Position numbers and translations under genes: made by a program | The notes under the pieces: model-generated | Databases searched by the model: none | Told to the model about the DNA's origin: nothing | The model's input: the letters and a program-made list of their open reading frames with translations, nothing else | Part shown: positions 17,227 to 30,808 of the stretch, piece by piece | Layout of the letters: every line of letters begins with the position of its first letter | Numbering within the stretch: the stretch's first letter is position 1 | Sequence record: PP724615.1 | DNA length: 64,000 nt | Strand: one strand, 5' to 3' | Source of the DNA: Escherichia phage HK6

Positions 17227-17302
17227 TGGTAGTTAGTAGTGGATTTGAACCACTGTAGTCACTCCGTATGAAGGAGGTGCATAACCACTCTGCCAACTAA
17301 CT
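17227..17302 (-). tRNA. tRNA with CAT anticodon (Met-type)
   Basis: T-arm AGTGG-TTCAAAT-CCACT, 7-bp acceptor stem, encoded CCA; anticodon read by eye. Confidence 0.65.
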
Positions 17303-17398
17303 ATTATGTTTTACTAGACTAAGTAAGTATTCTTTATACTCTTTAGACCAATTAGCTTTTTTAAACTTTCCTGGACGCATAGTCTTAATTCCTAAATT

Positions 17399-17476
17399 TG
17401 GTACTCCGGGAGGGATTTAAACCCCCCGATCTCTCGGTTATCAGCCGAGTGCTTTAGATCGCTAAGCTACCGAAGC
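17399..17476 (-). tRNA. tRNA-Ile (GAT)
   Basis: Anticodon arm CTCGG-CTGATAA-CCGAG, acceptor GCTTCGG/CCGGAGT with G-U pairs. Confidence 0.65.
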
Positions 17477-17477
17477 A

Positions 17478-17705
17478 TTAACATTTAATTGCAGAACGTT
17501 TACCATTTCTAGGCGCACCTGGAAGTCGTGCACATTCCGCCATTTTTCTTTTTATTTTGTAGATATTTTCTTGTGTTTGTTCTTCAGGCTTAATACCTGA
17601 AACACTACACCACTGATTACCATCCCATGCAGTAATGATCATAACACCATTACTCATGATCTTTTCTGTGAAAGTAATCCTCATTATAGCAACTCGTCTA
17701 AGCAA
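17478..17705 (-). CDS. Hypothetical protein (75 aa)
   Basis: ORF track. Confidence 0.4.
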   Translation of the reverse strand: MLRRVAIMRITFTEKIMSNGVMIITAWDGNQWCSVSGIKPEEQTQENIYKIKRKMAECARLPGAPRNGKRSAIKC

Positions 17706-17977
17706 GAGGTATATTTAATTTTACCATCTTTATCTACTTTGATTTCGACTTCCGCTCGTGGTACTTGACGAACTACACCATGAATCATCTTATAGCGAAT
17801 GCCTTTAGCTGGTTCATGATCTTTTGGAAATACTTGCTTAACCGTTACTACCTTGAAACCCTCACGCGGTGTTAACACTACTACTTGATCACCTTCTTTG
17901 ATTTTCCAAGAGCTAGGAAATTCATAGGTATAGCGTTGACCACCAGTTTGGAACACAACAGAAAGATAACGTTTCAT
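17684..17977 (-). CDS. Hypothetical protein (97 aa)
   Basis: Promoter module upstream at about 17975-18040. Confidence 0.5.
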   Translation of the reverse strand: MKRYLSVVFQTGGQRYTYEFPSSWKIKEGDQVVVLTPREGFKVVTVKQVFPKDHEPAKGIRYKMIHGVVRQVPRAEVEIKVDKDGKIKYTSCLDELL

Positions 17978-18226
17978 TTGGTTTCCCTCTCATTAATTTA
18001 TATAAATATTATAACAAGAAATAAGAGAGAAAGCAAATGAATTTTTAATAAAGTTTAGTCACTTCATAAACTATACTACGAGATTCTTTATTACGTTCTA
18101 TTAAATTAGCATATGCTTTTTCAGCTTCATTTTTAGTATTAAAGTCTATAACGTGGGAGGTATTAGCTCTGTTTGATTGGCTATACCAGATAACTACTAG
18201 GAGTTTAAACATACTAGTCCTTAAAT

Positions 18227-18313
18227 TGGTGCTGGGCACAGGATTCGAACCTGCAATGGGATTACTCCTCCTGATTACAAATCAGGTGCATTCAACCATT
18301 CTGCCAACCCAGC
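18227..18313 (-). tRNA. tRNA, anticodon TGT by eye, with long variable arm (87 nt)
   Basis: Anticodon arm CCTGA-TTTGTAA-TCAGG; T-arm GCAGG-TTCGAAT-CCTGT; variable-arm hairpin; isotype uncertain. Confidence 0.6.
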
Positions 18314-18478
18314 AGAACCCGTTATTTCAACGGGATTTCTTTTTCAATAACAGGGGACTTATCAGTCATGACTGTCATTGCCATTTGTTGTAGAAATTCA
18401 AAGGTGAAGGCTACACGTTCTTCACCAATCTCTACTTCTACACGTTTCTTTTGTTTGTCGATCTTAACTTTTAGGTTA

Positions 18479-18730
18479 TCAGCCATTAGAGAGTACAGTA
18501 CTGGTAGTTGGCAATACTACAGATGAAGCAACAGTGTTTAAATGCTTTCTCCAGTCTAGGTTAAATTGTTTTCGAAACTCTTCATAAGGTTCTTCTGGAT
18601 AAAAGCTAAAACCTCCTTTCTCATCATTCAGGATAACAGAGCCGTCAGTTTGTTCGTATGCTCGGTATGTTTCTCCAATAACAATAACTCGTTTATCGGT
18701 ACTTTTATTACGAAACTCAAAAACGTGCAT
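18479..18730 (-). CDS. Hypothetical protein (83 aa)
   Basis: ORF track. Confidence 0.45.
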   Translation of the reverse strand: MHVFEFRNKSTDKRVIVIGETYRAYEQTDGSVILNDEKGGFSFYPEEPYEEFRKQFNLDWRKHLNTVASSVVLPTTSTVLSNG

Positions 18731-18746
18731 AATGTTTCCTTAAAGT

Positions 18747-18822
18747 TGGAGCGGCTAGAGGGAATCGAACCCTACTCAGCGAGGCTTGGAAGGCCTGCGA
18801 CACAACCCGTGTGCTTAACCGC
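18747..18822 (-). tRNA. tRNA-Gly (TCC)
   Basis: T-loop TTCGATT; anticodon loop CTTCCAA. Confidence 0.6.
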
Positions 18823-18830
18823 TTATTATT

Positions 18831-18906
18831 TGGCTGGAGAAGGAGGAATCGAACCTACCATTAACGGAGTCAAAGGCCGTTGTGCTAACCGTTACACTAC
18901 TCTCCA
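18831..18906 (-). tRNA. tRNA-Gln (TTG)
   Basis: Acceptor TGGAGAG/TTCTCCA; anticodon loop CTTTGAC; T-loop TTCGATT. Confidence 0.65.
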
Positions 18907-18912
18907 ATTATT

Positions 18913-18988
18913 TGGCTGGGATGCCACGGATCGAACGTGGAACCTTCGGAGTCAGAGGCCGACGATCTGCCAATTGATCTACATCCCA
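18913..18988 (-). tRNA. tRNA-Gln (CTG)
   Basis: Acceptor TGGGATG/CATCCCA; D-stem GATC/GATC; anticodon loop CTCTGAC; T-arm CCACG-TTCGATC-CGTGG. Confidence 0.7.
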
Positions 18989-18997
18989 AGAATGCTA

Positions 18998-19234
18998 TTA
19001 ACTAGATGCTGTTTCTACTGGCTGAGATACAGCCGGCTGTTCTAACGTATCTGGTGCTGATACGGAGAAAAGAGCTTGTAATGCTGCAATATCACGCTCG
19101 TAAGTATCAATACGAGTAGTAAGAGTATCTACCATTTGTTTATGGTAAGCTAAGTTATTCTGAGACTCATCTCGAAGAGTTTGCAGTTCTGCAAGACGTG
19201 TTAACATAATTTCACTAATTAAAGCATTACTCAT
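18998..19234 (-). CDS. Hypothetical coiled-coil protein (78 aa)
   Basis: ORF track. Confidence 0.4.
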   Translation of the reverse strand: MSNALISEIMLTRLAELQTLRDESQNNLAYHKQMVDTLTTRIDTYERDIAALQALFSVSAPDTLEQPAVSQPVETASS

Positions 19235-19424
19235 TTGTTTCTCCTAAGTTTTCCTGTTCTTCTAAACGTTTGCCTTCATGATCTACTCGAATAACTCCGC
19301 ATCCTTCGCAAATCACAACTGCACCATAACCTTCTTTGACCTCAGCTTCTGTAATCAAACCAGAAAGATCACCAGTATCTCTGCCCCACATATCAATGGA
19401 GCATTGTTTGCAGAAATCAGCCAT
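19227..19424 (-). CDS. Small zinc-ribbon-like protein (65 aa)
   Basis: CKQCS and CEGCG Cys pairs. Confidence 0.4.
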   Translation of the reverse strand: MADFCKQCSIDMWGRDTGDLSGLITEAEVKEGYGAVVICEGCGVIRVDHEGKRLEEQENLGETNE

Positions 19425-19451
19425 ATTTTATTTCCTATTTAAGTTAATTTG

Positions 19452-19528
19452 GGGTGGCTAGTGGAATTCGAATCCACATAGGCCTGATTCACAATCAGGA
19501 TCATTAACCAATTATGATATAGCCACAA
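19452..19528 (-). tRNA. tRNA-His (GTG)
   Basis: Anticodon arm CCTGA-TTGTGAA-TCAGG; T-arm GTGGA-TTCGAAT-TCCAC; acceptor GTGGCTA/TAGCCAC. Confidence 0.75.
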
Positions 19529-19892
19529 TTGAAAACTCGCAGGGTTAGCGAAACCTTCCTCAATTAGCATGTTCTAGAATACTAATCAAGTTATCTCCTA
19601 TTGCACGCAGCTCAAGACGAGTACGAATTTTCAATTGTGGCGGCTCTCAGAAACTCTTCTACTCTAGTCTTAGCAGCTTACTCCCGAACGCATGTCGGGG
19701 AAGTCTTACCAAGAGCATCAAATAGCACCGTTACACTTTGAGCCATAGGTGTATCAAGAAGCAGAAGGACTTGAACCTTCACGAGATAGACCATTTATCT
19801 CAGCCGCTTTATGAGGTATGTTGCTGGGAGTGGATGTTCCCCATAAACCTTTTAGGCAGCCCCGTCTACCGATTCCGGCATACTTCAAGATT

Positions 19893-19986
19893 TGGAGGTA
19901 GGTAAGGGGATCGAACCCTTACACCGTATCACTACGATCAACCGATTTCAAGTCGGAGTCCAGCGCCAGCCGTTGGATTGACCTAC
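19893..19986 (-). tRNA. tRNA-Ser (TGA), long variable arm
   Basis: T-arm AAGGG-TTCGATC-CCCTT; acceptor GGTAGGT/ACCTACC; anticodon loop CTTGAAA. Confidence 0.65.
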
Positions 19987-19998
19987 CGTATAAATTGT

Positions 19999-20093
19999 TT
20001 GGCGGAAAAGATGGGAGTTGAACCCATAAGGCGGTATTGCTACCACTCAACCGATTTCCAATCGGGTTTAGTCACCAGTCTATTTGCTTTTCC
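19999..20093 (-). tRNA. tRNA-Ser (GGA), long variable arm
   Basis: T-arm ATGGG-TTCAACT-CCCAT; acceptor GGAAAAG/CTTTTCC; anticodon loop TTGGAAA; 5' end overlaps the stop of the HNH gene by about 14 nt. Confidence 0.6.
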
Positions 20094-20664
20094 GTTGTTC
20101 TGTTAATACTTTTGGGCTTAATCCGGTTAGTTTAGTATATCGTCTACGTAAAGTGGACTCTGATACTTCTAGATCTTTAGCTGCCTTAACCCACCCCATT
20201 AATAAAACCTTTTCAGTTATGTCTTCTAAGGACAATTCTGGTTTTATTAACTTTCCTGTAGGTTTTGGCTTACAATTTGTACATGTTACTGATCTCTGAA
20301 GCATTAGATTTCCACATAAGGGGCAAGGTACTCTACTATCAGACCATCCATTATCTTTATTAGTTTTCTTCTGATGTTCTATTTTTGACAAAACTTGAAG
20401 ATTATCTTTAGATAGATTCAGCCTATCTCTATCCTTGTGATCTACTTCTAATTCAGGGTCAAATAGATTATATAAGTCCCCAAATACATGAGAAATAATT
20501 CGGTGTATAAGTACCGAAGTTTGCTTACCATTTATCTGTAATTTTACAGCAGGGTATCCATCAACTATATATCTTGATAAAATTTTATTAGTAAATGTAG
20601 ATAACACATCCCCTGTTTCATTTACTAAATACCCTGGTGCATCTTTTATTGGTACAAACTGCAT
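20080..20664 (-). CDS. HNH homing endonuclease (194 aa)
   Basis: N-terminal IKDAPGYLVNETGDV (NUMOD4-like), HNH core VDHKDRDRLNLSKDNLQVLSKIEHQKK, C-terminal HTH-like tail. Confidence 0.75.
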   Translation of the reverse strand: MQFVPIKDAPGYLVNETGDVLSTFTNKILSRYIVDGYPAVKLQINGKQTSVLIHRIISHVFGDLYNLFDPELEVDHKDRDRLNLSKDNLQVLSKIEHQKKTNKDNGWSDSRVPCPLCGNLMLQRSVTCTNCKPKPTGKLIKPELSLEDITEKVLLMGWVKAAKDLEVSESTLRRRYTKLTGLSPKVLTEQRKSK

Positions 20665-20680
20665 ACATTACCCTATAAGT

Positions 20681-20765
20681 TGGTGGGGCTAGGGAGACTC
20701 GAACTCCCACGCATTTAAGCTACGGAATCTAAGGCCGTATTGTCTACCAGTTCCAGCATAGCCCC
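20681..20765 (-). tRNA. tRNA-Leu (TAG), long variable arm
   Basis: T-arm GGGAG-TTCGAGT-CTCCC; acceptor GGGGCTA/TAGCCCC; anticodon loop CTTAGAT. Confidence 0.65.
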
Positions 20766-20770
20766 AAATT

Positions 20771-20844
20771 TGGTGGAGAAAGAGGGAGTTGAACCCTCGT
20801 CTTCTGCGTGCAAAGCAGATGTTCTACCATTAAACTATATCCCC
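20771..20844 (-). tRNA. tRNA-Ala (TGC)
   Basis: T-arm GAGGG-TTCAACT-CCCTC; anticodon arm TCTGC-TTTGCAC-GCAGA. Confidence 0.65.
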
Positions 20845-21129
20845 AAATTCTTTAGTTTACTAAGGCTATTAGCTCGGCGTAACTACAGCACCTTCGCTTC
20901 GAGCGGAAGGAACCGCGTCATCTCGCAAACCCGATACACTATTCAGTTGCCGCTGAATCTAGTGGACTAATCTAGAACTTCTCCCGAATCGTAGGGATCG
21001 TGCTTTTTGGCAGCCAGTCCTAGGTCGAGCTAATACCTTAGTGAACTATGATGAGGATTTCTCCTCATCAATTTATATTGATATTATAACAAGAAATTAA
21101 GCATCAAGCAACTGCATTTTTCTTGAAAT

Positions 21130-21209
21130 TGGTAGATCGCCTGGGACTCGAACCCAGAACCTTCCGATTAAAAGTCGGATGCTACTAAACCTATTGAGCT
21201 AGCGATCTA
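21130..21209 (-). tRNA. tRNA-Lys (TTT)
   Basis: Acceptor AGATCGC/GCGATCT; anticodon arm TCCGA-CTTTTAA-TCGGA; T-arm CTGGG-TTCGAGT-CCCAG. Confidence 0.7.
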
Positions 21210-21397
21210 TTAGTAACCATTATACACTTCTTTAATAGAGTGGACTTTTAAGTAAGGGTGATTAGTACTAAACTCTACCATTACTTCATCCCAATTTTTA
21301 CCGTAATGAGCAAGTAAGGATTTTGATGTATTCTTACCTGAACGTTTGTCACTTACTACTAATCGAAATACTTTCATTTCGAAATCCCCTATTAAAA

Positions 21398-21474
21398 TGG
21401 AAGCGGGTGCAGGAATCGAACCTACCTCTTTCTAGCTTATGAGACTAGTGATCTCTACCAGAGATCTAACCCGC
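21398..21474 (-). tRNA. tRNA with CAT anticodon (Met/fMet/Ile2-type)
   Basis: Anticodon arm CTAGT-CTCATAA-GCTAG; T-loop TTCGATT; acceptor pairing imperfect, ends approximate. Confidence 0.5.
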
Positions 21475-21481
21475 AATTGTT

Positions 21482-21557
21482 TGGTCAGTGCGGCAGGACT
21501 CGAACCTGCGACCCGAAGCATCCAAGGCTCCCACGCTACCAACTGCGCTACGCACTG
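21482..21557 (-). tRNA. tRNA-Pro (TGG)
   Basis: Acceptor CAGTGCG/CGCACTG; anticodon loop CTTGGAT; T-arm GCAGG-TTCGAGT-CCTGC. Confidence 0.75.
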
Positions 21558-21566
21558 TTAATTCTT

Positions 21567-21764
21567 TTATTGTGGAGGAATATTAATAATTCGTCCATCT
21601 ACACAATAAACGGTACTAGGAATCGTACTATATATGTAGAAATTCTTTATATTACTCTCTCCGCCACAGAAATTTTTAGCAAATTCATACTCTTTATTAA
21701 TGGTTGAGTCAAATTTAAAACAACCAGTAAGTAGGAATACAGATAGTAATAAAACTTTCTTCAT
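21567..21764 (-). CDS. Small lipoprotein (65 aa)
   Basis: Signal peptide with lipobox LLTGC; promoter module upstream. Confidence 0.5.
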   Translation of the reverse strand: MKKVLLLSVFLLTGCFKFDSTINKEYEFAKNFCGGESNIKNFYIYSTIPSTVYCVDGRIINIPPQ

Positions 21765-22217
21765 TTAGCTTTCCTTCTCTTCACTTTATAAGATATATTA
21801 TACAGAGAATTAAGCAGAATAGCAAATGAATTTTTAATAAATTTACTTATTGTGTAGGCCACCTGGAGGCTACCAACCCCACGGCTGACAAAGAAGTTTG
21901 CGAGACCTCTCTTAAATGCCAGAATAGACCCGCCGATCTATCGGAACCTACATAATAAGTAAACTTTATAGTGTCATTCTAGACAGGACTCGAACCTGTT
22001 ATCACTTGTGCGGACTTACGAGAACCATTCTTTCACTCGAATCGAACGAGCTTCTGCCCTCGCCAAGCTGGTTTCCCCATCAACCACGCTAGAATGTTTG
22101 ATTATTTTCAGTGCAAGAGTCCGAGTCTTGGACACGACCGCTTCGCAAGTACATAGGCTGCTTATCATGAGTCAGCACTTCCGAATTGCTAGCTCCGTGT
22201 TCTGCACTGAAATTTTG

Positions 22218-22565
22218 TTAATTTAACAGTAAAGTACGATCTACTTCACCATTAATTGTTCGGCATTCTTCTGGGATCTCTGGTGTAGCCTTATATTCCC
22301 ACCATTCAGAACCGTCGTATTCACCACGTTCTAACCAAGTTCCATCAGTAAACCACACGTTACCATAAAGCAATTGCCCACCATAACCAGAATCATATTT
22401 AAAGTCTAGATTATTTAGAAAATCTTCAATATCTTTTTCTGTATAACCTACGGGCAATACCCAAACTTCTTTGTCTCCATAATAACCGAATTCTATCTTA
22501 ATACACTTAACTTCAGAATTAGTATTCTTTAGGGCAAGTAACAACTCTTCTTTAGCATTAATCAT
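22218..22565 (-). CDS. Hypothetical protein (115 aa)
   Basis: ORF track. Confidence 0.5.
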   Translation of the reverse strand: MINAKEELLLALKNTNSEVKCIKIEFGYYGDKEVWVLPVGYTEKDIEDFLNNLDFKYDSGYGGQLLYGNVWFTDGTWLERGEYDGSEWWEYKATPEIPEECRTINGEVDRTLLLN

Positions 22566-22591
22566 AGCATATTTCTCGTGCTAGTTTAGTT

Positions 22592-22667
22592 TGGTACACC
22601 CACTAGGACTTGAACCTAGAACCCCCCGCTTAAGAGGCGGTAGCTCTAACCATTGAGCTATGGATGT
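22592..22667 (-). tRNA. tRNA-Lys (CTT) by eye
   Basis: Acceptor ACATCCA/TGGGTGT; anticodon loop CTCTTAA; T-arm CTAGG-TTCAAGT-CCTAG. Confidence 0.55.
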
Positions 22668-22843
22668 ATTAAATTACTTTTTCCAGTTCATCAGCTATGG
22701 CTTTGATTTTTTCAAAGTTTACATCACTTATAATGATACCTTCCAGTGACAGAGATATTCTAGCATTTTTTATAGCAGATTCTTTTATCTGCTCTATCTC
22801 TTCTGGAGTAAACTCCCTACGTTCCATAGCTAACCTACCTTAT

Positions 22844-22920
22844 TTGGCGCGACCGATGGGATTCGAACCCACATTCTCTCCCGTGACAGGGGAGTACCAT
22901 TACCAAACCAGCCCCGGTCG
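22844..22920 (-). tRNA. tRNA-Asp (GTC)
   Basis: Acceptor GCGACCG/CGGTCGC; anticodon arm CTCCC-CTGTCAC-GGGAG; T-loop TTCGAAT. Confidence 0.7.
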
Positions 22921-22930
22921 CATAATTCAT

Positions 22931-23116
22931 TTACTCAGCTTTGAGTTTTTCAATAGCTGCATTAAGTTCCTTAAGAAACTCTTTTCGTACATTAAGACGA
23001 TTAAGACTTACTAGTATATCATGTTTAAGTTCTTCGATGTATTTCTTCTCAACTTCAATATTGTTGATAGTGCTATCACGATGAACTTCTAGCTGTGCAA
23101 TTACATTCTTGGACAT
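22931..23116 (-). CDS. Hypothetical coiled-coil protein (61 aa)
   Basis: ORF track. Confidence 0.35.
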   Translation of the reverse strand: MSKNVIAQLEVHRDSTINNIEVEKKYIEELKHDILVSLNRLNVRKEFLKELNAAIEKLKAE

Positions 23117-23230
23117 GCTTGTTTCCTCAGTTATTAATGAAAATGGTATCTGTGGCTGAATTCGATGTCAGCAATGATAGCTGGTTGGCTACCGGTTTAC
23201 TTAACTCTACACAGAATTTGGCGGGCCGTG

Positions 23231-23313
23231 TAGGATTCGAACCTACGTTGTCTTTCGACACGGATTAACAATCCGCCGCCAAACCGCTTGGCTAACGACC
23301 CTAAATTTATATT
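23231..23313 (-). tRNA. tRNA, anticodon GTT (Asn-type) with unusually long variable arm (83 nt)
   Basis: Acceptor GGGTCGT/ACGGCCC; D-stem GCCA/TGGC; anticodon arm GCGGA-TTGTTAA-TCCGT; 13-nt variable arm; T-arm GTAGG-TTCGAAT-CCTAC. Confidence 0.6.
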
Positions 23314-23453
23314 GCTGACTAGGATTTTCACCTAGACGGAGTTAGCACCGTAGCGTGTAGCGGCATACCTCTCCAAACCGTGCCTCATCTTTCAATTACG
23401 GAGACAGTGTTCCTACGCGTGCCTGAATTGTTTTAACAATTCTTTCAGCAAAT

Positions 23454-23529
23454 TGGACGACCGCATGAGATTTGAACTCACATAAAAAGGATTTGCAATC
23501 CTTCGCCTAAGCCATTCAGCCAACGGTCG
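23454..23529 (-). tRNA. tRNA-Cys (GCA)
   Basis: Anticodon arm AAGGA-TTGCAAA-TCCTT; T-loop TTCAAAT; acceptor CGACCGT/GCGGTCG. Confidence 0.65.
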
Positions 23530-23598
23530 ATTTATCTTATTCTATCATGTTGCTTCTCCAGTTCAATTTATGTAATTATTATACAGAACTTTTGGAAA

Positions 23599-23886
23599 CT
23601 AAGCAACTACATTTTTTAAAAATTTGATGCCTTTCTTTTTCTTCTTATATTTCCACGTTAATGGATTCTGTCGATTATGAACGCTTGAGATCTTTGTCTC
23701 GTCAAAGTTCTTCAATATCATGTAATCACAAGATAATTGTTCTAGTGGAATGTGATCACCATCAAAAGCATATACATAAGGCTGTTGACTAGCACGATAA
23801 TGATAGACTTTGTTAATTCTACGTTTCAGCGACTTATCCGCGCAGTAAATAAAGAAGTTTTCAGGATGCATCAGCAGCTCCTTCAA
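23599..23886 (-). CDS. Hypothetical protein (95 aa)
   Basis: Promoter module upstream at about 23540-23620. Confidence 0.5.
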   Translation of the reverse strand: MKELLMHPENFFIYCADKSLKRRINKVYHYRASQQPYVYAFDGDHIPLEQLSCDYMILKNFDETKISSVHNRQNPLTWKYKKKKKGIKFLKNVVA

Positions 23887-23888
23887 AT

Positions 23889-23963
23889 TGGTGCACCCTG
23901 TTCGTATCGAACGAACCTCTCAAGCTCTTCAGGCAAGCGCTAATCCATCTCAGCTAAAGGTGC
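23889..23963 (-). tRNA. tRNA-like, possible Phe (GAA), weak anticodon stem
   Basis: Good acceptor (GCACCTT/AGGGTGC) and T-arm (GTTCG-TTCGATA-CGAAC) but the anticodon stem has two mismatches; may be degenerate. Confidence 0.4.
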
Positions 23964-23969
23964 AAATTT

Positions 23970-24040
23970 TGGCAGGGGTAAAGGTATTCGAAACCTTTTC
24001 ATGGGTTTTGGAGGCCCATTTGCAACCTATGCGTACCCCA
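23970..24040 (-). tRNA. tRNA-Trp (CCA) candidate, short D region
   Basis: T-arm AAGGT-TTCGAAT-ACCTT; anticodon loop CTCCAAA; only about 71 nt, 5' end approximate. Confidence 0.45.
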
Positions 24041-24049
24041 ATTATTAAT

Positions 24050-24124
24050 TGGCACACCCAACGAGGATCGAACTCGTGTTCCCACTGTGAAAGAGTAGTG
24101 TCCTAACCGCTAGACGATAGGTGC
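24050..24124 (-). tRNA. tRNA-Glu (TTC)
   Basis: D-stem GTCT/GGAC; anticodon arm CTACT-CTTTCAC-AGTGG; T-arm ACGAG-TTCGATC-CTCGT. Confidence 0.7.
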
Positions 24125-24131
24125 ATTAAAT

Positions 24132-24219
24132 TGGTGGGCGTTAATGGAGTCGAACCACTCGAGTCGCAATGACCAGGGATTTACAATCCCCTCCGCTACC
24201 ACTTACGGAATAAACGCCC
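24132..24219 (-). tRNA. tRNA-Tyr (GTA), long variable arm
   Basis: Anticodon arm GGGGA-TTGTAAA-TCCCT; D-arm TTCC..GG.AG resembles bacterial tRNA-Tyr; acceptor GGGCGTT/AACGCCC. Confidence 0.7.
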
Positions 24220-24417
24220 AAATTCTCTTTAAGGTAGCCAGTGTTACCGCACTGACTAGGAGTTATCGGTAAAATGGTGGGGGCCATCTGCCAAAAATTT
24301 ACTCTGCTAAAGTAAGAACTACCTTAAAAAGAACTTTCCAAATTAGATAAATATTATACCAAGTTTTATAGTATTGGGCAAGTCAAATTTTAAAGAACTT
24401 GCCCAATGCTGTATTAG

Positions 24418-24693
24418 TTAGTCGAACTTAGGAGTGACAGTTAAGGAGAATGGAAGTTCGAAAACTTCTTCCCCCTCATTACTAACGGTAACTACACGAC
24501 CTTTAAGTTCAGACATTGAAATATCAATATCAGCTTTTGCATCCGGAGCCATGCCAGCTTCAACACATTTAGCTTTAATTTCCGGCAGAAGTTCTACATC
24601 GTAGAAATAAAGCCATTCAATCTCACCTTCCCAGCCTTCCCAGGATTTACAGATTGCACTTTCAATACCAGCTGCTATAACACGATTTTGCAT
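24418..24693 (-). CDS. Hypothetical protein (91 aa)
   Basis: Promoter module upstream at about 24700-24770. Confidence 0.5.
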   Translation of the reverse strand: MQNRVIAAGIESAICKSWEGWEGEIEWLYFYDVELLPEIKAKCVEAGMAPDAKADIDISMSELKGRVVTVSNEGEEVFELPFSLTVTPKFD

Positions 24694-24783
24694 TCATTAA
24701 CTCCTTCATCAATTTATATAACTATTATATCAGAAATTTAAAGCAAAAGGCAAGTACATTTTTAAAAATTCTGTTTGGAGGAG

Positions 24784-24990
24784 CTAAACTCCAGATTCTT
24801 CAGCCAAGTCTAGACTAATAAGAGATATAGCCATAATTGCCGCTCCATGTTCTTTTTCTCCAGTTTCTTTAGCTAGAGTTATAATATCAAGAAATTGCTT
24901 ATGAAAATCTGCAACCTCTTGAGTTAAACCCGCCTCAGCAATCATACCTTTAAGCATGAAACGTTGTGCGGTAATTTCAGGATTAGCCAT
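24784..24990 (-). CDS. Hypothetical protein (68 aa)
   Basis: ORF track. Confidence 0.4.
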   Translation of the reverse strand: MANPEITAQRFMLKGMIAEAGLTQEVADFHKQFLDIITLAKETGEKEHGAAIMAISLISLDLAEESGV

Positions 24991-25164
24991 GTTGTTTCTC
25001 CAGTTTCATCTTTAATAGTCTACAAATAAAATCAATGTCTTCATCCGTGCCTAGATCTCTATCTTCAAGAGTTGCCTTGAAGTTTTTAGTCAACTCCATG
25101 AGAATAACTTCTCTAGAACGACGTGTTGGCGGAGGTGGATGTCTATACATCTTATTTCCTTAAT

Positions 25165-25241
25165 TTGGTAGGGGTGGTGGGATTCGAACCCACAAAACCT
25201 GAATTTTAAGTCCAGTACCTATGCCAATTCGATTACACCCC
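25165..25241 (-). tRNA. tRNA with TAA anticodon (Leu-type) but short variable arm
   Basis: Acceptor GGGGGTG/CACCCCT; anticodon arm CTGGA-CTTAAAA-TTCAG; T-arm GTGGG-TTCGAAT-CCCAC; 77 nt. Confidence 0.55.
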
Positions 25242-25343
25242 CATGTAATCAGTTTATTAGTTGATACATATTATAGCCTAGTGAAAATCCTACTACTAGT
25301 CCCACAAACCAACCAATATAGTAATCTTTTAGTTTCACAGGTA

Positions 25344-25529
25344 TTATCCTCGTTCAATATCTAGGGAAATACCACAGTTAGGATTAATACCTGTACCATT
25401 GCAATTTGGGCAAACCCAGATATTGCAAAAAGTATCTCCTGCTTCTGCATCAGAACTTTCACCAATTCCCCTACACTCAGGGCAGGCACATTCTTCTAGC
25501 TCTTGCTTGAGTTCTTGAAACTTGGACAT
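25344..25529 (-). CDS. Small zinc-ribbon protein (61 aa)
   Basis: CPECRG...CPNCNG Cys pairs. Confidence 0.45.
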   Translation of the reverse strand: MSKFQELKQELEECACPECRGIGESSDAEAGDTFCNIWVCPNCNGTGINPNCGISLDIERG

Positions 25530-25538
25530 ATAGTCTCC

Positions 25539-25727
25539 TTAGTCAATTACTTTTGAGGCTTCTAAAGCATTGACGTAGTAAACATCTTCTACATTATACA
25601 TATAGTCTACTACTTTGTCCATAGCATGGAGTTCGGATGTAGCCTTTACTAGTCTGTACCCTTGTTTAAACTCGTCCGAACGTTCTCTATCTTGTGCAAA
25701 TTTAACAGAAACTATGAATAATTCCAT
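25539..25727 (-). CDS. Hypothetical protein (62 aa)
   Basis: ORF track. Confidence 0.4.
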   Translation of the reverse strand: MELFIVSVKFAQDRERSDEFKQGYRLVKATSELHAMDKVVDYMYNVEDVYYVNALEASKVID

Positions 25728-25745
25728 TAATTGTCCTTATTTAAT

Positions 25746-25823
25746 TTGGTGGCTCCCCGAGGATTCGAACCTACGTACCTACCGGTTATGAGCCGGGTGC
25801 TCATACCATATGAGCTTGAGAAC
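25746..25823 (-). tRNA. tRNA with CAT anticodon (Met/fMet/Ile2-type)
   Basis: Acceptor GGTTCTC/GGGAGCC; D-arm GCTCA-TATGGTA-TGAGC; anticodon loop CTCATAA; T-loop TTCGAAT. Confidence 0.6.
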
Positions 25824-25829
25824 CAAAAT

Positions 25830-25918
25830 CTGGCGGAAGAAGTGGGAATCGAACCCACAAGGCTATATTTCAAACCGACAGATTAGCAATCTGCTGCAAT
25901 ACCGTTATGCTATTCTTC
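25830..25918 (-). tRNA. tRNA-Ser (GCT), long variable arm
   Basis: Acceptor GGAAGAA/TTCTTCC; anticodon arm GCAGA-TTGCTAA-TCTGT; T-arm GTGGG-TTCGATT-CCCAC. Confidence 0.7.
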
Positions 25919-25940
25919 CGAATTTATAAGATATATTATA

Positions 25941-26510
25941 TTAGAAATTTAGCTTCATAGCAAGAAAATTTTTCAAGTTTTCGGTAGACATCTCATCCAC
26001 ATCTACAGGAGAAACAAATCCATTTAATTTTCTAGCAAATTTTTCACCAGCAGGATCGTTGTCCCCGACAGCTACTAATTTAAAAGGTAATAATTTCAAT
26101 TGCTTTAATAACGCTTTTCCTGGAGAAGAACCCAACATTGCCAGGGCTGGGTAACCAGCATTATGTAACGCAACTGCCTTAAATACAGATTCAGCGATCA
26201 ATACTACTTTTTCATCTCCATTGAGAGTTTCTAGTCCCCATACACACTGGGTAGTAGAATAAGTAAAGTATTTAGCTTCAAAGGGGCACTTACCATGACC
26301 TTTTGGAGCAGAAGGATTGTAAGTTTGATAGCCCCTCAACATCCCAGAGAAGTCATACAACGGGACAGTTAGCCATCCTTCCGGACTTAACCAGCAATGA
26401 TATTTATCTGTATCAAATCCTCTAGATAAGAGGTGCTGTGTTAGCTCATCAACATTCATATTTGGTTCCTCTCTCAAATTTATAGATATATTATACAGAG
26501 AATTTAGCAT
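25941..26510 (-). CDS. Toprim-domain protein (189 aa)
   Basis: VAVGDNDPAGEKFARKL resembles the Toprim DxD acidic motif; no zinc-binding primase domain. Confidence 0.5.
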   Translation of the reverse strand: MLNSLYNISINLREEPNMNVDELTQHLLSRGFDTDKYHCWLSPEGWLTVPLYDFSGMLRGYQTYNPSAPKGHGKCPFEAKYFTYSTTQCVWGLETLNGDEKVVLIAESVFKAVALHNAGYPALAMLGSSPGKALLKQLKLLPFKLVAVGDNDPAGEKFARKLNGFVSPVDVDEMSTENLKNFLAMKLNF

Positions 26511-26634
26511 TCAAGCAATCAAATTTTTTAACTTTTTAGAGGAGAATCATAGGGCACTTAAGGGTAGCAGATAAGTGGTGAGGACCAAAATTTGTGACCC
26601 CACTAAAAATCCGGGGGCAATTTTTAAAGATCCC

Positions 26635-26663
26635 TTGACATTTTCGCTGGGGTAGTGTAAAGT
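26635..26663 (+). promoter_or_regulatory. sigma70-like promoter (TTGACA, 17 bp, TAAAGT) for the plus-strand operon
   Basis: Perfect -35 hexamer, weaker -10; shares the 13-mer TTGACATTTTCGC with the promoter at 55633. Confidence 0.5.
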
Positions 26664-26725
26664 ATATGTTATGGATGAGTGATCAAAGAGACACACATTT
26701 TCTATATACTAGGAGGTGTCAAAAA

Positions 26726-27718
26726 ATGACAGAAGAAGTAGCTAAGAGTCCTGAGACCGTCGCTAGCGTTGCAGCAGAACTGCACCGTCACGAGGAATCA
26801 GATAAGAAAAAGTGGGAGAAGGTCAGAGCCTACGAAGAAAAACATCGTGAACACGATGAAGATGATAAAGAAGATGACGATGATGAGCATTGTCATAAAT
26901 ATGGAAAACATAAAATGCAAGAACCAGTAAACGTATTTACTAGTGGCTTCCCTGGCCTACTGGGTGGTTACCCAGCAAACGCAGGTGCTTTCGGTGGTGA
27001 AGGTATGGGACTATTCGGAGCTATCCTAATCGGTGCTCTATTAACAGGCGGATTCGGTGGATTCGGTGGATTCGGTGGACGTGGTATAGTTGGTGATGGT
27101 ACCGCAGTTGATGCAGTACTTCAGAACCAAGATACCGCTAGTATTCTAGCAGCTATTAACACTACTCGTACAGAAGCTAATCAGGGTACTGGAGCTGTTT
27201 TAAGCGCAGTTAACAATGGTTTTAGCCAGACATCCCAAAACCAGAGCCGTGATACTCAGTCTGTACTAACTACGATCTATGGTACGGGTGCTAATCTGTC
27301 TAATCAAATCTGCCAGGAAACTCGCAACGTTATTCAGGGTCAGTTCGATCTTTCTCGCCAGATTGATCAATCTTTCGCAGCTAACCAGATAGCTCGTGCA
27401 CAAGATAAGTTTGATTCTGCACAGATCGCTTTCCAGCAGACTTTACAAACTAATAACCAGTTTGCCGCTGTTCAGGCTCAGATGTGTGCTAACCAGAACT
27501 CTCTGGAACGTCAGATTGCTGAATGTTGCTGTGAACTTCAGACTGCGATCGCTGGTGTAACTACTGCGCGTATCCAGGATGAGTTAGATGCGTGTCGCCT
27601 ACGTGAAGCAATCGCTGCGGGTAGCGGTGCTAACGGTCAGGTAATTAATCAAATCGCTTTAAGTCTTGGTACTATCACTCAGACTCTGGCTGGTCTGCAG
27701 GCTAAACTGCCGGCTTAA
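26726..27718 (+). CDS. Low-complexity membrane protein, acidic N-terminus, GGFGGFGGFGG segment, Q/T/N-rich C-terminus (330 aa)
   Basis: Start at the ATG 8 nt after AGGAGG (track ORF begins 26666); hydrophobic glycine-zipper GMGLFGAILIGALLTGGFGGFGGFGGRG; no family recognised. Confidence 0.65.
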   Translation: MTEEVAKSPETVASVAAELHRHEESDKKKWEKVRAYEEKHREHDEDDKEDDDDEHCHKYGKHKMQEPVNVFTSGFPGLLGGYPANAGAFGGEGMGLFGAILIGALLTGGFGGFGGFGGRGIVGDGTAVDAVLQNQDTASILAAINTTRTEANQGTGAVLSAVNNGFSQTSQNQSRDTQSVLTTIYGTGANLSNQICQETRNVIQGQFDLSRQIDQSFAANQIARAQDKFDSAQIAFQQTLQTNNQFAAVQAQMCANQNSLERQIAECCCELQTAIAGVTTARIQDELDACRLREAIAAGSGANGQVINQIALSLGTITQTLAGLQAKLPA

Positions 27719-27739
27719 TATTAAGGGGAGGAGCCCATT

Positions 27740-28156
27740 ATGAGTAAATATGGTTTTGTAAATAACGGACTTAATCAAAGTATGGGCTCCCAGCAGCCCA
27801 TTCCGGGTCTGGATAACCCCTACTTACAACAGTTGCAACAGCGTTTAGCAGAAGCGCAACAGATGCAGCAACAACTCCAGCAAAACCCTGGAAGTGTAAG
27901 TCCTATGCAAATGATGCAGCAAATGAGCGGGCAGTCGCAAATGCCTCAACAAATGCAGCAACAGATTCCGCAGCAGCAAGTTCAGCAACAAACCCAACAA
28001 CCGCAGGTTTCTGCGGAAGGACAGGCAGTACTAGCCCTTTTCGAAGACTTCGCAAAGACAGAGGATGGAAAACAGCTTGTATCACTTATGGGTAAGTTTA
28101 ATAGCTTCTGCCAAAGCCAAGTTGCAAAAGCTCAAAATGGTGGTAATAACTCCTAA
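27740..28156 (+). CDS. Gln-rich low-complexity protein (138 aa)
   Basis: RBS GGGGAGGAG; about 40 percent Q in the central region. Confidence 0.6.
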   Translation: MSKYGFVNNGLNQSMGSQQPIPGLDNPYLQQLQQRLAEAQQMQQQLQQNPGSVSPMQMMQQMSGQSQMPQQMQQQIPQQQVQQQTQQPQVSAEGQAVLALFEDFAKTEDGKQLVSLMGKFNSFCQSQVAKAQNGGNNS

Positions 28157-28165
28157 GGAGGAATT

Positions 28166-28360
28166 ATGTGTTGCAGAAAATCTGTTTCGTGCTGCCCAAT
28201 GCCTGTAGCACGTTGTTGCTCTCCAGCAATGTTTACGCAAATACCGGCGTTCAATCCGTTTGCCTTTAAGCCTACTCTTATCCTGCCCCCTAGAGTAGAT
28301 TTTCAGTCAAGATTGGCCTCCCGTATGGGTGGTTGCTGTAACAAGAGTATATGGTTCTAA
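28166..28360 (+). CDS. Small Cys-doublet protein (64 aa, four CC pairs)
   Basis: RBS AAGGAGG; MCCRKSVSCCPMPVARCC...GGCCNKSIWF. Confidence 0.55.
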   Translation: MCCRKSVSCCPMPVARCCSPAMFTQIPAFNPFAFKPTLILPPRVDFQSRLASRMGGCCNKSIWF

Positions 28361-28375
28361 GGAACCAAACAATAA

Positions 28376-28406
28376 AGCCCCTAAGTCTTTCGACTAGGGG
28401 CTTTTC
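28376..28406 (+). terminator. Rho-independent terminator ending the plus-strand operon
   Basis: GCCCCTAG..CTAGGGGC stem followed by TTTTCTTTT. Confidence 0.75.
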
Positions 28407-28426
28407 TTTTATCTTAAATACAGAAA

Positions 28427-28455
28427 AGCCCGCGCTTTCGGAGAAAACGCGGGCT
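28427..28455 (-). terminator. Rho-independent terminator downstream of SPFH gene
   Basis: AGCCCGCG..CGCGGGCT stem followed on the minus strand by TTTTCTGTATTT. Confidence 0.7.
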
Positions 28456-28479
28456 TGGTTCGAAGATTACGTGTAACTA

Positions 28480-29427: not shown

Positions 29428-29461
29428 ATATTTCCTTTGTTTTAGTTACAGTTAATAAAAT

Positions 29462-29536
29462 TGGCCGAGGTGACAGGATTCGAACCTGCATAAAGGAATT
29501 TAGAAGACTCCTGCCTCTCCCTTAGACTACACCCCG
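29462..29536 (-). tRNA. tRNA-Arg (TCT)
   Basis: Acceptor CGGGGTG/CACCTCG; anticodon arm GGAGT-CTTCTAA-ATTCC; T-arm GCAGG-TTCGAAT-CCTGT. Confidence 0.65.
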
Positions 29537-30040
29537 TTTAAGTATTTTTAAGAACTCTCGTAAAAACTCTTAAAAATACAGACGATACCGGGAGAGTCAT
29601 AAGTCTCACTCATTAAGTATTTCAAGACAAAATACGGTAACGTCTATTATTTTCCAGTTTAAGTCAGGGTGACTTAGTGGTTATGTCCTGCGGTATATTG
29701 AGGACTCGGTTAGGCTTGGGGTCATGACTTCCCGCCTTTTGCTGCTACTCAACAGGAATTATCGCGAATTACCTGTGCTATTGTGCACCATTAGTGACAT
29801 CTCTCATGTCAGCATTTCCCACTTTGTGGATAGCTTGAAAAACTACTCCGATATGGAGAAAGAACTTCACTATCCTAGAATACCTTCTAAAGTTCTTCTT
29901 TAGCCTGGACATAGTTAAATCGTAATAAAACTATTCAGCAGACTGGTTGGTTAGTCTGGAACCAACTACCGCGTGGTTTAGGCAGTGCGCAACTAACCTC
30001 GGAAGCTTTTACGTTAAAAGCACCAGTTATCCAGTTCTTA

Positions 30041-30112
30041 CCGACCGTAGGATTCGAACCTACATCTTCCACCAGTTACGGCTTGATAATACCAATTATA
30101 ATAGGACGGCAG
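30041..30112 (-). ncRNA. tRNA-like element without a clean anticodon stem
   Basis: Canonical T-arm GTAGG-TTCGAAT-CCTAC and partial acceptor pairing; no 5+7+5 anticodon arm found. Confidence 0.3.
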
Positions 30113-30805: not shown

Positions 30806-30808
30806 TAT

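What the first reader, a model, noticed from the sequence alone, without database searches (positions are those of the whole stretch)
21850..22210. Second ORF-free tRNA-like region with two T-arm motifs and acceptor-like complementarity 120 nt apart
T-arm-like motifs at 21984-21998 (CAGG-ACTCGAA-CCTG) and 22036-22050 (CTCG-AATCGAA-CGAG), plus complementary CTAGAAT segments about 120 nt apart that could pair as an acceptor stem, suggest a disrupted or insert-containing tRNA or another structured RNA. I could not fold a canonical tRNA.
Basis: seen in the sequence. Interest (0 to 1): 0.45.

Follow-up and report, generated by a model that had tools for sequence, protein, structure and literature searches.

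The report
Phage T5 tRNA-like stable RNA genes

Summary

Window 21851-22212 holds three stem-closed RNA modules:
- **22096→21972:** the 97%-identical orthologue of phage T5 gene rna2, annotated in the T5 record as "tRNA-like stable RNA with unknown functions".
- **21953→21851:** the orthologue of T5 rnaIV.
- **22212→22100:** conserved but unannotated.

rna2 belongs to a phage-restricted family found in T5-like phages, Acinetobacter T4-like phages and contigs up to 363 kb. It is a complete tRNA cloverleaf, and covariation supports every helix. The 7-nt anticodon loop is replaced by a conserved ~55-nt module.

It has no anticodon loop. Unlike all 22 tRNAs in the window, it has no encoded CCA. 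There is no group I intron, no tmRNA feature and no Rfam hit in the window, although Rfam's tRNA model hits distant members end to end.

A T5 deletion mutant lacking it is viable. My best reading is a non-decoding tRNA mimic cut out by the tRNA-processing machinery; its target is unknown. The gene is known; its biology is unexplained.

The parts
   Evidence: 96.8% identical over all 125 nt to T5 misc_RNA rna2 (NC_005859 32959-33083). The covariance model R1 hits 21975-22095 at 148.7 bits.
22089..22095 (-). rna2 acceptor stem, 5' strand (AUUCUAG)
   Evidence: Pairs with 21976-21982. All 7 pairs show two-sided changes across the family, 94% of cells paired.
22069..22086 (-). rna2 D arm (UGGU / UGAUGGGGAA / ACCA)
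   Evidence: All 4 stem pairs covary. The loop carries the GG typical of D loops.
22064..22068 (-). rna2 anticodon stem, 5' strand (G-CUUG)
   Evidence: Pairs with 22004-22008. All 5 pairs covary, 97.5% of cells paired. Rfam's tRNA model aligns this stem as the anticodon stem in relatives.
22009..22063 (-). 55-nt module that replaces the 7-nt anticodon loop
   Evidence: The Rfam tRNA alignment of relatives shows 55-58 nt where the model has 6-7. The module contains the conserved blocks GGGYWG, UUCGAUU, (A)UGGU and CGUAANUCCGCA.
22056..22059 (-). Helix H4, 5' strand (GGGC); pairs with 22012-22015 (GUCC)
   Evidence: Three pairs never vary and the fourth covaries (C-G 15, U-A 12, U-U 5). The flanking 2-bp helix G22054-C22020 and A22053-U22021 has one covarying pair.
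22035..22051 (-).
   Evidence: 4 of 5 stem pairs covary, and the loop is UUCGAUU in nearly all members.
22009..22020 (-). Conserved block CGUAAGUCCGCA directly 5' of the anticodon-stem 3' strand
   Evidence: CGUAA.UCCGCA is identical in all 32 aligned members. It is also present in members found by BLAST and by a pattern that did not require it.
   Evidence: 3 of 5 pairs covary and the other two never vary (G-C).
21976..21982 (-). rna2 acceptor stem, 3' strand (CUAGAAU), followed by G-ACA, not CCA
   Evidence: All 22 tRNAs of the window encode CCA.
21851..21953 (-). rnaIV orthologue: 103-nt stable RNA, with a cloverleaf-shaped predicted fold and a 7-nt loop CUCGCAA on a long arm
   Evidence: 98% identical to T5 misc_RNA rnaIV. 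The minus strand folds better than the plus strand (z -1.98 against -0.63). The few substitutions are G-U to G-C or A-U swaps inside predicted stems.
22100..22212 (-). Upstream stem-closed module ('domain 1'), not annotated in T5
   Evidence: 97.5% identical to the unannotated T5 gap 33084-33204. GC is 0.49-0.52 against about 0.3 in the flanks. A long terminal helix (about 11 base pairs) closes the module. Too little variation exists for covariation. Epseptimavirus has tRNA-Lys(ctt) in its place.
21797..21825 (-). Sigma-70 promoter-like site just downstream of rnaIV (T5 promoter P13a)
   Evidence: TTGCTA-17-TATAAT, 10 of 12 matches. It is syntenic with the annotated T5 promoter P13a.

Best explanation
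The interval holds three consecutive non-coding RNA modules on the minus strand, inside the tRNA gene array of a T5-like phage (Demerecviridae).

It is a tRNA-derived RNA with a full cloverleaf: a 7-bp acceptor stem, a D arm, a 5-bp anticodon stem and a T arm. The 7-nt anticodon loop has been replaced by a conserved 55-nt module. That module consists of:
- a 4-bp helix, GGGY:RUCC;
- a 2-bp helix next to an unpaired GUAA;
- a second T-arm hairpin with a UUCGAUU loop;
- a conserved GG-containing strand;
- the hexamer UCCGCA abutting the anticodon stem.

Shown here: the identity with T5 rna2 and rnaIV, the fold, its restriction to phages, and its position in tRNA arrays.

Inferred:
- It is transcribed with the tRNAs.
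- RNase P and the 3'-end tRNA-trimming nucleases cut it out.
- It accumulates as the 125-nt stable RNA that the T5 record describes.
- It cannot decode, because it has no anticodon loop. It is probably not a normal aminoacyl acceptor, because it has no encoded CCA and no conserved acceptor identity.

Most likely, but untested: it works as a tRNA mimic that occupies a tRNA-binding factor. The most plausible version is a decoy or inhibitor for a host tRNA-targeting nuclease or enzyme. It is an accessory function, not an essential one.

The downstream module is T5 rnaIV. The upstream module is an unannotated structured element of the same transcript.

My confidence differs by layer: identity with T5 rna2 and rnaIV about 0.97, the fold about 0.9, a non-decoding role about 0.75, and the decoy function about 0.25. 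The overall figure of 0.6 is for the statement as a whole.
For: **Identity**
- The window matches T5-like phages at 99.6%.
- The interval aligns with T5 32838-33204, where the record annotates rna2 as 'tRNA-like stable RNA with unknown functions', rnaIV, and promoter P13a.

**Fold**
- In 32 family members, 95.7% of pair cells are standard pairs, against 70% in shuffles.
- 25 of 32 pairs show two-sided changes.
- The covariation score is 0.65, against 0.17 in shuffles and 0.08 or less with slid partners.
- RNAalifold recovers the same helices on its own.
- An alignment-free search finds 6-7-bp acceptor stems of many different sequences.

**tRNA ancestry**
- Rfam's tRNA model hits distant members end to end above its gathering score (51.9, 40.9 and 38.4 bits), with 55-58 nt in place of the anticodon loop.
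- My model also picks up ordinary tRNAs at 15-34 bits.

**Array context**
- The element is always on the tRNA strand.
- It often lies 0-10 nt from a neighbouring tRNA.

**Not a normal tRNA**
- 22 of 22 window tRNAs and 229 of 237 tRNAs in the loci encode CCA. At most 4 of 24 rna2 homologues could encode CCA (clearly 1-2).
- ARAGORN at default settings and Rfam miss the window copy.

**Phage-restricted**
- Of 28 pattern hits in 185,579 bacterial species genomes, only one is a member, and it sits on a phage-sized 167-kb contig.

**Accessory**
- T5Mos, with deletion 30661-38625, lacks rna2 and rnaIV and still grows (PMC11464382).
Against: - No expression or end-mapping data could be examined here. 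'Stable RNA' rests on the T5 record's annotation.
- The decoy or mimic function is pure inference. No partner was identified, and neighbouring ORFs are uninformative.
- The conserved UCCGCA sits exactly where positions 33-38 of an anticodon loop would be. This also fits an intron-type reading.
- One or two members (Klebsiella phage KPN4, probably L041) do encode CCA.
- The covariation alignment was fitted to the model, and most members were collected with a sequence pattern. Conservation of the pattern blocks is therefore partly by ascertainment, though mitigate this.
- Folding-energy z-scores are unremarkable (-1.3 to -2.0).
Confidence: 0.6

Rival explanations
1. It is a precursor tRNA with a new kind of short intron. 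The ~48-nt insert would be removed by host or phage enzymes, leaving a 7-nt loop N-U-CCG-C-A, that is a tRNA-Arg(CCG)-like decoder.
For: - ARAGORN with introns allowed and a relaxed score calls 'tRNA-Arg(ccg), 48-nt intron'.
- Rfam's tRNA model accepts distant members as tRNA with a long loop insert.
- U-CCG-C-A is conserved and directly abuts the 3' strand of the anticodon stem.
- Helix H4 pairs the would-be anticodon with the insert, as anticodon-intron helices do in eukaryal pre-tRNAs (my own knowledge).
Against: - No bacterial or phage system is known that splices a ~50-nt tRNA insert, and the insert is too small for a group I intron. Rfam gives no intron hit.
- Position 37 would be C, whereas tRNAs almost always have a purine there (my own knowledge).
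- There is no encoded CCA, whereas 97% of co-resident tRNAs have one.
- The insert is the most conserved part of the molecule and has its own covarying helices. That is unlike a disposable intron.
- The T5 record describes a 125-nt stable RNA.
- An AT-rich phage with a full tRNA set has little need for a CGG decoder (inference).
Confidence: 0.12
2. It has no function in trans. The tRNA-like modules are only processing signals ('punctuation') or stabilisers, directing RNase P and RNase E cleavage of the long early transcripts that carry small ORFs and tRNAs.
For: - Three stem-closed modules lie between an ORF (22218-22565) and the next promoter.
- tRNA-like shapes are RNase P substrates (my own knowledge).
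- Modules are shuffled between related phages, for example tRNA-Lys in place of domain 1 and tRNA-Gly inserted between rna2 and rnaIV.
Against: - A plain tRNA would serve as punctuation. This does not explain the invariant insert blocks and the second T-arm kept across T5-like phages, T4-like phages and large phage contigs.
- In many loci rna2 sits between tRNAs that already supply cleavage sites.
Confidence: 0.15
3. It is a tmRNA-like or otherwise chargeable tRNA mimic that enters the ribosome or another aminoacyl-tRNA-using enzyme.
For: - An intact acceptor stem, T arm and D arm give an L-shaped body.
- The segment CUCGUAAGUCCGCA resembles by eye the E. coli tmRNA PK1 segment CCUCGUAAAAAGCCGCA (my memory of that sequence, not tested).
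- A few members encode CCA.
Against: - ARAGORN finds no tmRNA, even with relaxed settings, and Rfam gives no tmRNA hit.
- There is no G3-U70 pair and no conserved acceptor or discriminator identity.
- There is no conserved reading frame in the insert. The ATG-led frames differ between members (read directly).
- The pseudoknot-type pairing CGAG:CUCG is not kept across the family, and the nested helix is.
- Most members lack CCA.
Confidence: 0.08
4. It is a decaying tRNA pseudogene hit by an insertion, or the region encodes the small hypothetical proteins that some GenBank records annotate.
For: - The window copy fails the default tRNA finders and has odd core bases (C8, U14).
- CDSs are annotated over it in some records.
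Against: - The insert and all stems are conserved, with compensatory changes, across distant phage lineages.
- Length differences of 1-5 nt between members break any reading frame.
- The longest ORFs are 50-72 aa and are not kept in KPN4 or DU_PP_V.
Confidence: 0.03

Closest known systems
Phage T5 rna2 (T5s06, 'tRNA-like stable RNA with unknown functions') and rnaIV (T5s05), as annotated in NC_005859
   Same: They share 97-98% identity over their full lengths, the same order, the same strand and the same flanks: the T5.067 homologue upstream, and promoter P13a, the T5.066 homologue and tRNA-Pro downstream.
   Different: There is nothing material. The window copy has A instead of G at two positions, and G-ACA follows the acceptor stem as in T5. 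The upstream 113-nt module is present in T5 but not annotated there.
Canonical tRNA (Rfam RF00005)
   Same: It has acceptor, D, anticodon and T stems of standard length, a T loop UUCGAGU, a GG in the D loop, and a place in a tRNA array. Distant family members pass Rfam's tRNA threshold.
   Different: The anticodon loop is 55 nt instead of 7. There is no anticodon and no encoded CCA. The window copy gets no tRNA hit even at E up to 10.
tmRNA (SsrA)
   Same: Both are tRNA-derived RNAs in which the anticodon region is replaced by another structured domain while the acceptor and T arm are kept.
   Different: This RNA is 125 nt, not about 360. It keeps a full D arm and anticodon stem. It has no tag reading frame, no alanine identity pair and no pseudoknots supported by covariation.
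Intron-containing tRNAs (bacterial group I introns in anticodon loops; archaeal and eukaryal short introns after position 37)
   Same: The extra sequence sits in the anticodon loop, and a helix pairs the loop's anticodon-like bases with the insert.
   Different: The insert is too short for a group I intron, and Rfam gives no intron hit. It lies 5' of position 32-33, not 3' of position 37. The insert is more conserved than the tRNA body. No splicing system for it is known in these hosts (my own knowledge).
Other phage stable RNAs in tRNA clusters: T5 rna1, rnaI, rnaIII, rna2H, rnaX; T4 species 1 and 2 RNAs (rnaC, rnaD)
   Same: They are small stable RNAs of unknown function encoded among phage tRNA genes. 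T5 rna1 is likewise a tRNA-like RNA (Leu-type) whose anticodon loop is replaced by a ~49-nt extension.
   Different: They are different sequences and different inserts. My rna2 model hits neither T5 rna1 nor T4 rnaC or rnaD.
Bacterial Y-RNA-like YrlA
   Same: It is a tRNA-like module with T and D arms in a non-decoding RNA, also reported in some phages (my own knowledge).
   Different: Rfam returns no hit of any kind across the rna2 interval at E up to 10. The rna2 ends lie at the acceptor stem, whereas in YrlA the ends form the Ro-binding stem on the anticodon side (my own knowledge).

Membership tests
T5 rna2 orthologue | Full-length sequence identity to the annotated T5 rna2 | tested here: met
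   96.8% over 125 of 125 nt; aligned.
T5 rna2 orthologue | Same genomic position and strand (between the T5.067 homologue and rnaIV, P13a, T5.066 and tRNA-Pro) | tested here: met
T5 rna2 orthologue | Accumulates as a stable ~125-nt RNA in infected cells | not testable with these tools
T5 rnaIV orthologue | Full-length sequence identity and position | tested here: met
   98.1% over 103 of 103 nt, directly downstream of rna2.
Canonical tRNA (RF00005) | Cloverleaf with acceptor, D, anticodon and T stems | tested here: met
   All four stems covary. The Rfam tRNA model spans positions 1-71 in relatives.
Canonical tRNA (RF00005) | 7-nt anticodon loop with U33, an anticodon and a purine at position 37 | tested here: not met
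   The loop is 55 nt. The only U33-compatible reading gives C at position 37.
Canonical tRNA (RF00005) | Detected by ARAGORN or Rfam at standard thresholds | tested here: not met
   The window copy is not found. Distant members L046, L048 and L009 are found.
Canonical tRNA (RF00005) | 3' CCA encoded, as in the other tRNAs of this phage | tested here: not met
   The 3' end reads G-ACA. 22 of 22 window tRNAs have CCA. At most 4 of 24 family members could encode CCA (clearly 1-2).
tRNA with group I intron | Group I catalytic core (about 200 nt or more, P3-P8) | tested here: not met
   The insert is 48-55 nt, and Rfam gives no intron match at E up to 10.
tmRNA | tRNA-like domain with alanine identity, a tag reading frame and pseudoknots | tested here: not met
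   ARAGORN tmRNA search is negative, including with a relaxed score. There is no G3-U70 pair, no conserved frame, and the pseudoknot pairing is not conserved.
YrlA / bacterial Y RNA | Match to the Rfam model, with termini forming the Ro-binding stem | tested here: not met
   Rfam gives no hit. The termini form an acceptor stem.

The most novel reading that the evidence does not exclude
rna2 would define a widespread, phage-restricted class of 'two-elbow' tRNA mimics that is absent from Rfam. Each member is a full tRNA body whose anticodon loop is replaced by a conserved module with a second T-loop. On this reading the RNA acts in trans on host tRNA-recognising machinery, for example as a decoy that neutralises tRNA-cleaving immune nucleases. 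T5-like phages would carry several such engineered tRNA derivatives (rna1, rna2).
Probability: 0.2. Interest if true: 0.75.

Novelty: already known. Interest (0 to 1): 0.4.

Why it matters
The gene is not new. The T5 reference record lists rna2 and rnaIV as stable RNAs of unknown function.

What this work adds:
- rna2 is not a T5 oddity. It is a conserved, phage-only RNA family with a covariation-backed fold, found in T5-like phages, Acinetobacter T4-like phages and large uncultured phage contigs.
- It is missing from Rfam. Nearly all deposited genomes leave it unannotated or annotate it as 'hypothetical protein'.

Phage tRNAs have recently been shown to defeat tRNA-cleaving defence systems: T5 tRNA-Lys against PARIS, and T5 tRNA-Tyr against retron Eco7 (PMC11464382, PMC10644984). 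A non-decoding tRNA mimic in the same array is therefore a natural candidate for a related role.

The practical gains are a covariance model for annotation and a short list of testable hypotheses for a 40-year-old orphan RNA.

Tried and rejected
- **Standard RNA finders.** ARAGORN at default settings and Rfam at gathering score and at E up to 10 found nothing in 21850-22210.
- **tmRNA.** ARAGORN tmRNA mode with a relaxed score was negative.
- **Pseudoknot like tmRNA PK1 (CGAG:CUCG).** It is kept in the window and DU_PP_V copies, is imperfect in L009 and fails in most other members. The nested 2-bp helix is supported instead.
- **Helix between AGAAG and UUCU in the insert.** The register is not consistent across members (read directly).
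- **Small coding frame starting at the conserved AUGG.** Frames differ between members.
- **Parent tRNA isotype.** Global alignment of the insert-less body to the window's 23 tRNAs (22 from ARAGORN plus the Rfam-only one) gave no clear relative. D loops carry no ArgRS-type A20.
- **Protein partner from neighbours.** The flanking ORFs match only PHROGs of unknown function or a spanin-like family, and nothing in Pfam.
- **Bacterial homologues.** 27 of 28 pattern hits in bacterial genomes were chance matches.
- **T4 rnaC and rnaD as relatives.** My model does not hit them.
- **Covariation for rnaIV and domain 1.** Relatives are 97% identical or more, so the test has almost no power.
- **Literature.** No paper in the held library describes rna2 or rnaIV function. 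The 2018 T5 deletion-mutant paper is not held.

Full report
**Checking the observation**

- CAGG-ACTCGAA-CCTG at 21984-21998.
- CTCG-AATCGAA-CGAG at 22036-22050.
- ATTCTAG at 21976-21982 and its complement CTAGAAT at 22089-22095, 113 nt apart.

All 22 tRNA genes that ARAGORN finds in the window lie on the minus strand, from 17227 to 29536. On that strand the motifs read as a T arm, a second T-arm-like hairpin and a 7-bp acceptor stem. The interval has 49-53% G+C, against about 22-30% in its flanks. Only mechanical ORFs of 72 aa or less overlap it. ARAGORN at default settings and Rfam (gathering score, and E up to 10) report nothing inside 21850-22210.

**What the locus is**

The window is a T5-like phage. 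The interval matches 492 phage records, the best at 99.6% (Salmonella phages HMD-P5 and SE11).

The curated T5 record NC_005859 annotates these features at the syntenic place:
- misc_RNA rna2 (32959-33083, 'tRNA-like stable RNA with unknown functions').
- misc_RNA rnaIV (32838-32940, 'stable RNA with unknown functions').
- Promoter P13a.

Mapped onto the window:
- rna2 = 22096→21972 (96.8% identity).
- rnaIV = 21953→21851 (98.1% identity).
- The unannotated T5 gap 33084-33204 = 22216→22097 (97.5% identity).
- A promoter-like TTGCTA-17-TATAAT at 21825→21797 corresponds to P13a.

All the other T5 stable RNA genes are also present in the window.

**The pieces are modular**

- In Epseptimavirus, tRNA-Lys(ctt) takes the place of the upstream module.
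- In BF23 and related phages, a tRNA-Gly(gcc) and another structured element sit between rna2 and rnaIV.
- Only the rna2 core reaches distant genera: Pectobacterium phage DU_PP_V (77.5%), Klebsiella Sugarlandvirus (76.8%), and a 63-nt stretch at 85.7% in the T4-like Acinetobacter phage 133. In phage 133 it lies in an unannotated gap between tRNA-Gly and tRNA-Cys.

**The rna2 family**

- A pattern taken from these relatives (CGTAANTCCGCA, 10-14 nt, GGTTNRANNCC) found 49 IMG/VR loci. They include contigs of 164, 204, 251, 359 and 363 kb.
- This gave 36 distinct sequences, mostly 118-126 nt long. Their acceptor stems have many different sequences, such as ATTCTAG, TACGGGG, GACTTTG, TTACCGT, GGGCGAG, ATACTGT and GATTGAA.
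- A covariance model built from seven sequences recovered 32 members at E below 1e-6. Only one is in the window, at 21975-22095.
- The same model scores ordinary tRNAs at 15-34 bits, which shows how tRNA-like the body is.
- In GenBank phages a distant member matches 425 records, including 14 Acinetobacter phages. Almost none has any annotation under the match.

**The fold**

On the 32-sequence alignment:

| Measure | Observed | Shuffled | Slid partners |
|---|---|---|---|
| Pair cells that are standard pairs | 95.7% | 70% | 33-44% |
| Covariation score | 0.65 | 0.17 | 0.08 or less |

25 of 32 pairs show changes on both sides.

Every helix is supported:

| Helix | Pairs with two-sided change |
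|---|---|
| Acceptor stem | 7 of 7 |
| D stem | 4 of 4 |
| Anticodon stem | 5 of 5 |
| Second hairpin T2 | 4 of 5 |
| T stem | 3 of 5 |
| H4 (GGGY:RUCC) | 1 of 4 (C-G 15, U-A 12, U-U 5) |
| 2-bp helix next to H4 | 1 of 2 |

- RNAalifold predicts the same structure unaided.
- The alignment was fitted to the model. However, the alignment-free acceptor search and the Rfam result below are independent of it.
- The blocks GGG..G, most of the T2 loop and CGUAA.UCCGCA are identical in all 32 members.
- A second pattern that did not require the last block still returned only members that carry it, plus one chance hit.

**Relation to tRNA**

Rfam's tRNA model hits three distant members end to end above its gathering score of 29 bits:
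- L046, 51.9 bits.
- L048, 40.9 bits.
- L009, 38.4 bits.

In each case all four arms align, and 55-58 nt stand where the model has the anticodon loop. The family is therefore a tRNA in which the anticodon loop has been replaced.

Several results show it is not an ordinary tRNA gene:
- There is no 7-nt loop.
- ARAGORN calls 'tRNA-Arg(ccg) with a 48-nt intron' only when introns are allowed and the score is relaxed. That reading puts C at position 37.
- All 22 window tRNAs end in an encoded CCA, whereas rna2 has G-ACA.
- Across the loci 229 of 237 tRNAs encode CCA, against at most 4 of 24 rna2 homologues (clearly 1-2).
- Acceptor and discriminator bases vary freely, so no shared aminoacylation identity is visible.
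- The insert is far too short for a group I intron, and no intron model matches.

**Context and distribution**

- In every locus the element is on the same strand as the tRNAs, and none of the tRNAs is on the other strand.
- It often lies 0-10 nt from the next tRNA. This is the spacing of co-transcribed, RNase P-processed arrays (inference).
- The pattern found 28 places in one genome each of 185,579 bacterial and archaeal species. Only one is a family member, and it lies on a 167-kb contig, the size of a T4-like phage. The family looks phage-restricted.
- T5Mos, a T5 stock with deletion 30661-38625 in AY543070 coordinates, removes rna2 and rnaIV. It plates normally on cells without PARIS (PMC11464382). 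The RNAs are therefore dispensable in the laboratory.
- Flanking ORFs give no lead.

**The other two modules**

*rnaIV*
- It is predicted to fold into a stem-closed, cloverleaf-shaped RNA with a long arm ending in the 7-nt loop CUCGCAA.
- The minus strand folds better than the plus strand (z -1.98 against -0.63).
- The rare substitutions are G-U to G-C or A-U swaps within predicted stems. In two phages a different hairpin replaces the third hairpin.

*The upstream 113-nt module*
- A long terminal helix (about 11 base pairs) closes it.
- It is 97% or more conserved among Tequintavirus relatives.
- It has too little variation to test.
- Its status as a separate RNA is unproven.

**How it most likely works**

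Shown:
- Identity with T5 rna2 and rnaIV.
- The fold.
- tRNA ancestry.
- Array context.
- Lack of an anticodon loop and of CCA.
- Restriction to phages.
- Dispensability.

Inferred:
- Co-transcription with the tRNAs.
- Excision by RNase P and 3' trimming enzymes.
- Accumulation as a stable 125-nt RNA.
- No decoding role.

Guess:
- It acts as a tRNA mimic towards a tRNA-binding factor.
- Phage T5 tRNAs are known to defeat tRNA-cleaving defences: tRNA-Lys against PARIS and tRNA-Tyr against retron Eco7 (cited in PMC10644984). A decoy or inhibitor of such nucleases is therefore my preferred version, at roughly one chance in four.
- The conserved GG strand beside the T2 loop suggests a second 'elbow', like the D-loop/T-loop contact of tRNA. 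This is inference only.

**Rivals**

- A precursor tRNA with a novel short intron.
- A pure processing signal.
- A chargeable tmRNA-like mimic.
- A pseudogene or small-protein gene.

The first is kept alive by the conserved U-CCG-C-A sitting exactly at loop positions 33-38. The last is excluded by the conservation pattern.

**Verdict**

- It is already catalogued in the T5 reference genome, so it is not novel as a gene.
- Its function remains unknown.
- The family-wide fold, the second T-arm module and the phage-only distribution shown here are not in Rfam or in the papers I could search.

Noticed in passing
window 19752-19889 (-): This is the orthologue of T5 rna1. It is a Leu-type (class II) tRNA-like RNA whose anticodon loop is replaced by about 49 nt, forming an elongated arm that ends in a conserved 8-nt loop ACAUCC(A/G)C. 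The stem under the loop varies with compensating changes (read by eye) among 19 T5-like sequences. It is a second, different tRNA derivative with a replaced anticodon loop in the same phage.
   Followed up: partly
window 19528-19744, 20864-21035, 23144-23216, 29537-30166 (-): These are orthologues of the other T5 'stable RNAs of unknown function': rnaIII, rnaI, rna2H, rna3 and the ~630-nt rnaX next to tRNA-Arg. Identities are 91-100%. None has an Rfam match at the gathering score.
   Followed up: partly
window 25750-25824 (-): Rfam finds a tRNA here (40.2 bits) that ARAGORN does not. Its anticodon loop reads CUCAUAA, so the anticodon is CAU.
   Followed up: no
window 18227-18313 and 23219-23301 (-): tRNA-Thr is 87 nt and tRNA-Asn is 83 nt. 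Both carry a long variable arm, which is unusual for these isotypes. T5's own tRNA-Thr is 75 nt.
   Followed up: no
window 21954-21971 (-); L004 1820-1966; L005 1640-1830: In BF23, Epseptimavirus and DU_PP_V, the space between rna2 and rnaIV holds a tRNA-Gly(gcc) in BF23 and Epseptimavirus, plus (also in DU_PP_V) another ~110-nt stem-closed element (CTACCA...TGGTAG) and a hairpin AAGTAAAC-GAAA-GTTTACTT. The window keeps only the 3' half of that hairpin.
   Followed up: no
L044 652-1136: A GOLLD RNA (176 bits) lies in the same tRNA array as an rna2-like gene on an 86-kb uncultured phage contig.
   Followed up: no
L052 1051-1150; L020 9906-10039 / L047; L007 767-872: Three structural variants of the rna2 family turned up. 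One lacks the second T-arm and has a short GAAGU-AGUU-ACUUC hairpin in its place. One has an extra ~50-nt insert after the second T-arm. The Acinetobacter phage 133 copy appears to lack a D arm.
   Followed up: partly
window 22096 and 21975: The base before the acceptor stem (C) can pair with the discriminator (G), giving a possible 8-bp acceptor stem. The T5 record starts rna2 at that C. The same -1:73 complementarity holds in about 15 of 24 family members, but the AT-rich flanks make this weak evidence.
   Followed up: partly
window 22218-22565 (-): The 115-aa ORF upstream (the T5.067 homologue, phrog_3972, function unknown) is labelled 'excisionase' in several GenBank records. The label seems to rest on a weak 26-residue match to phrog_16544.
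   Followed up: no
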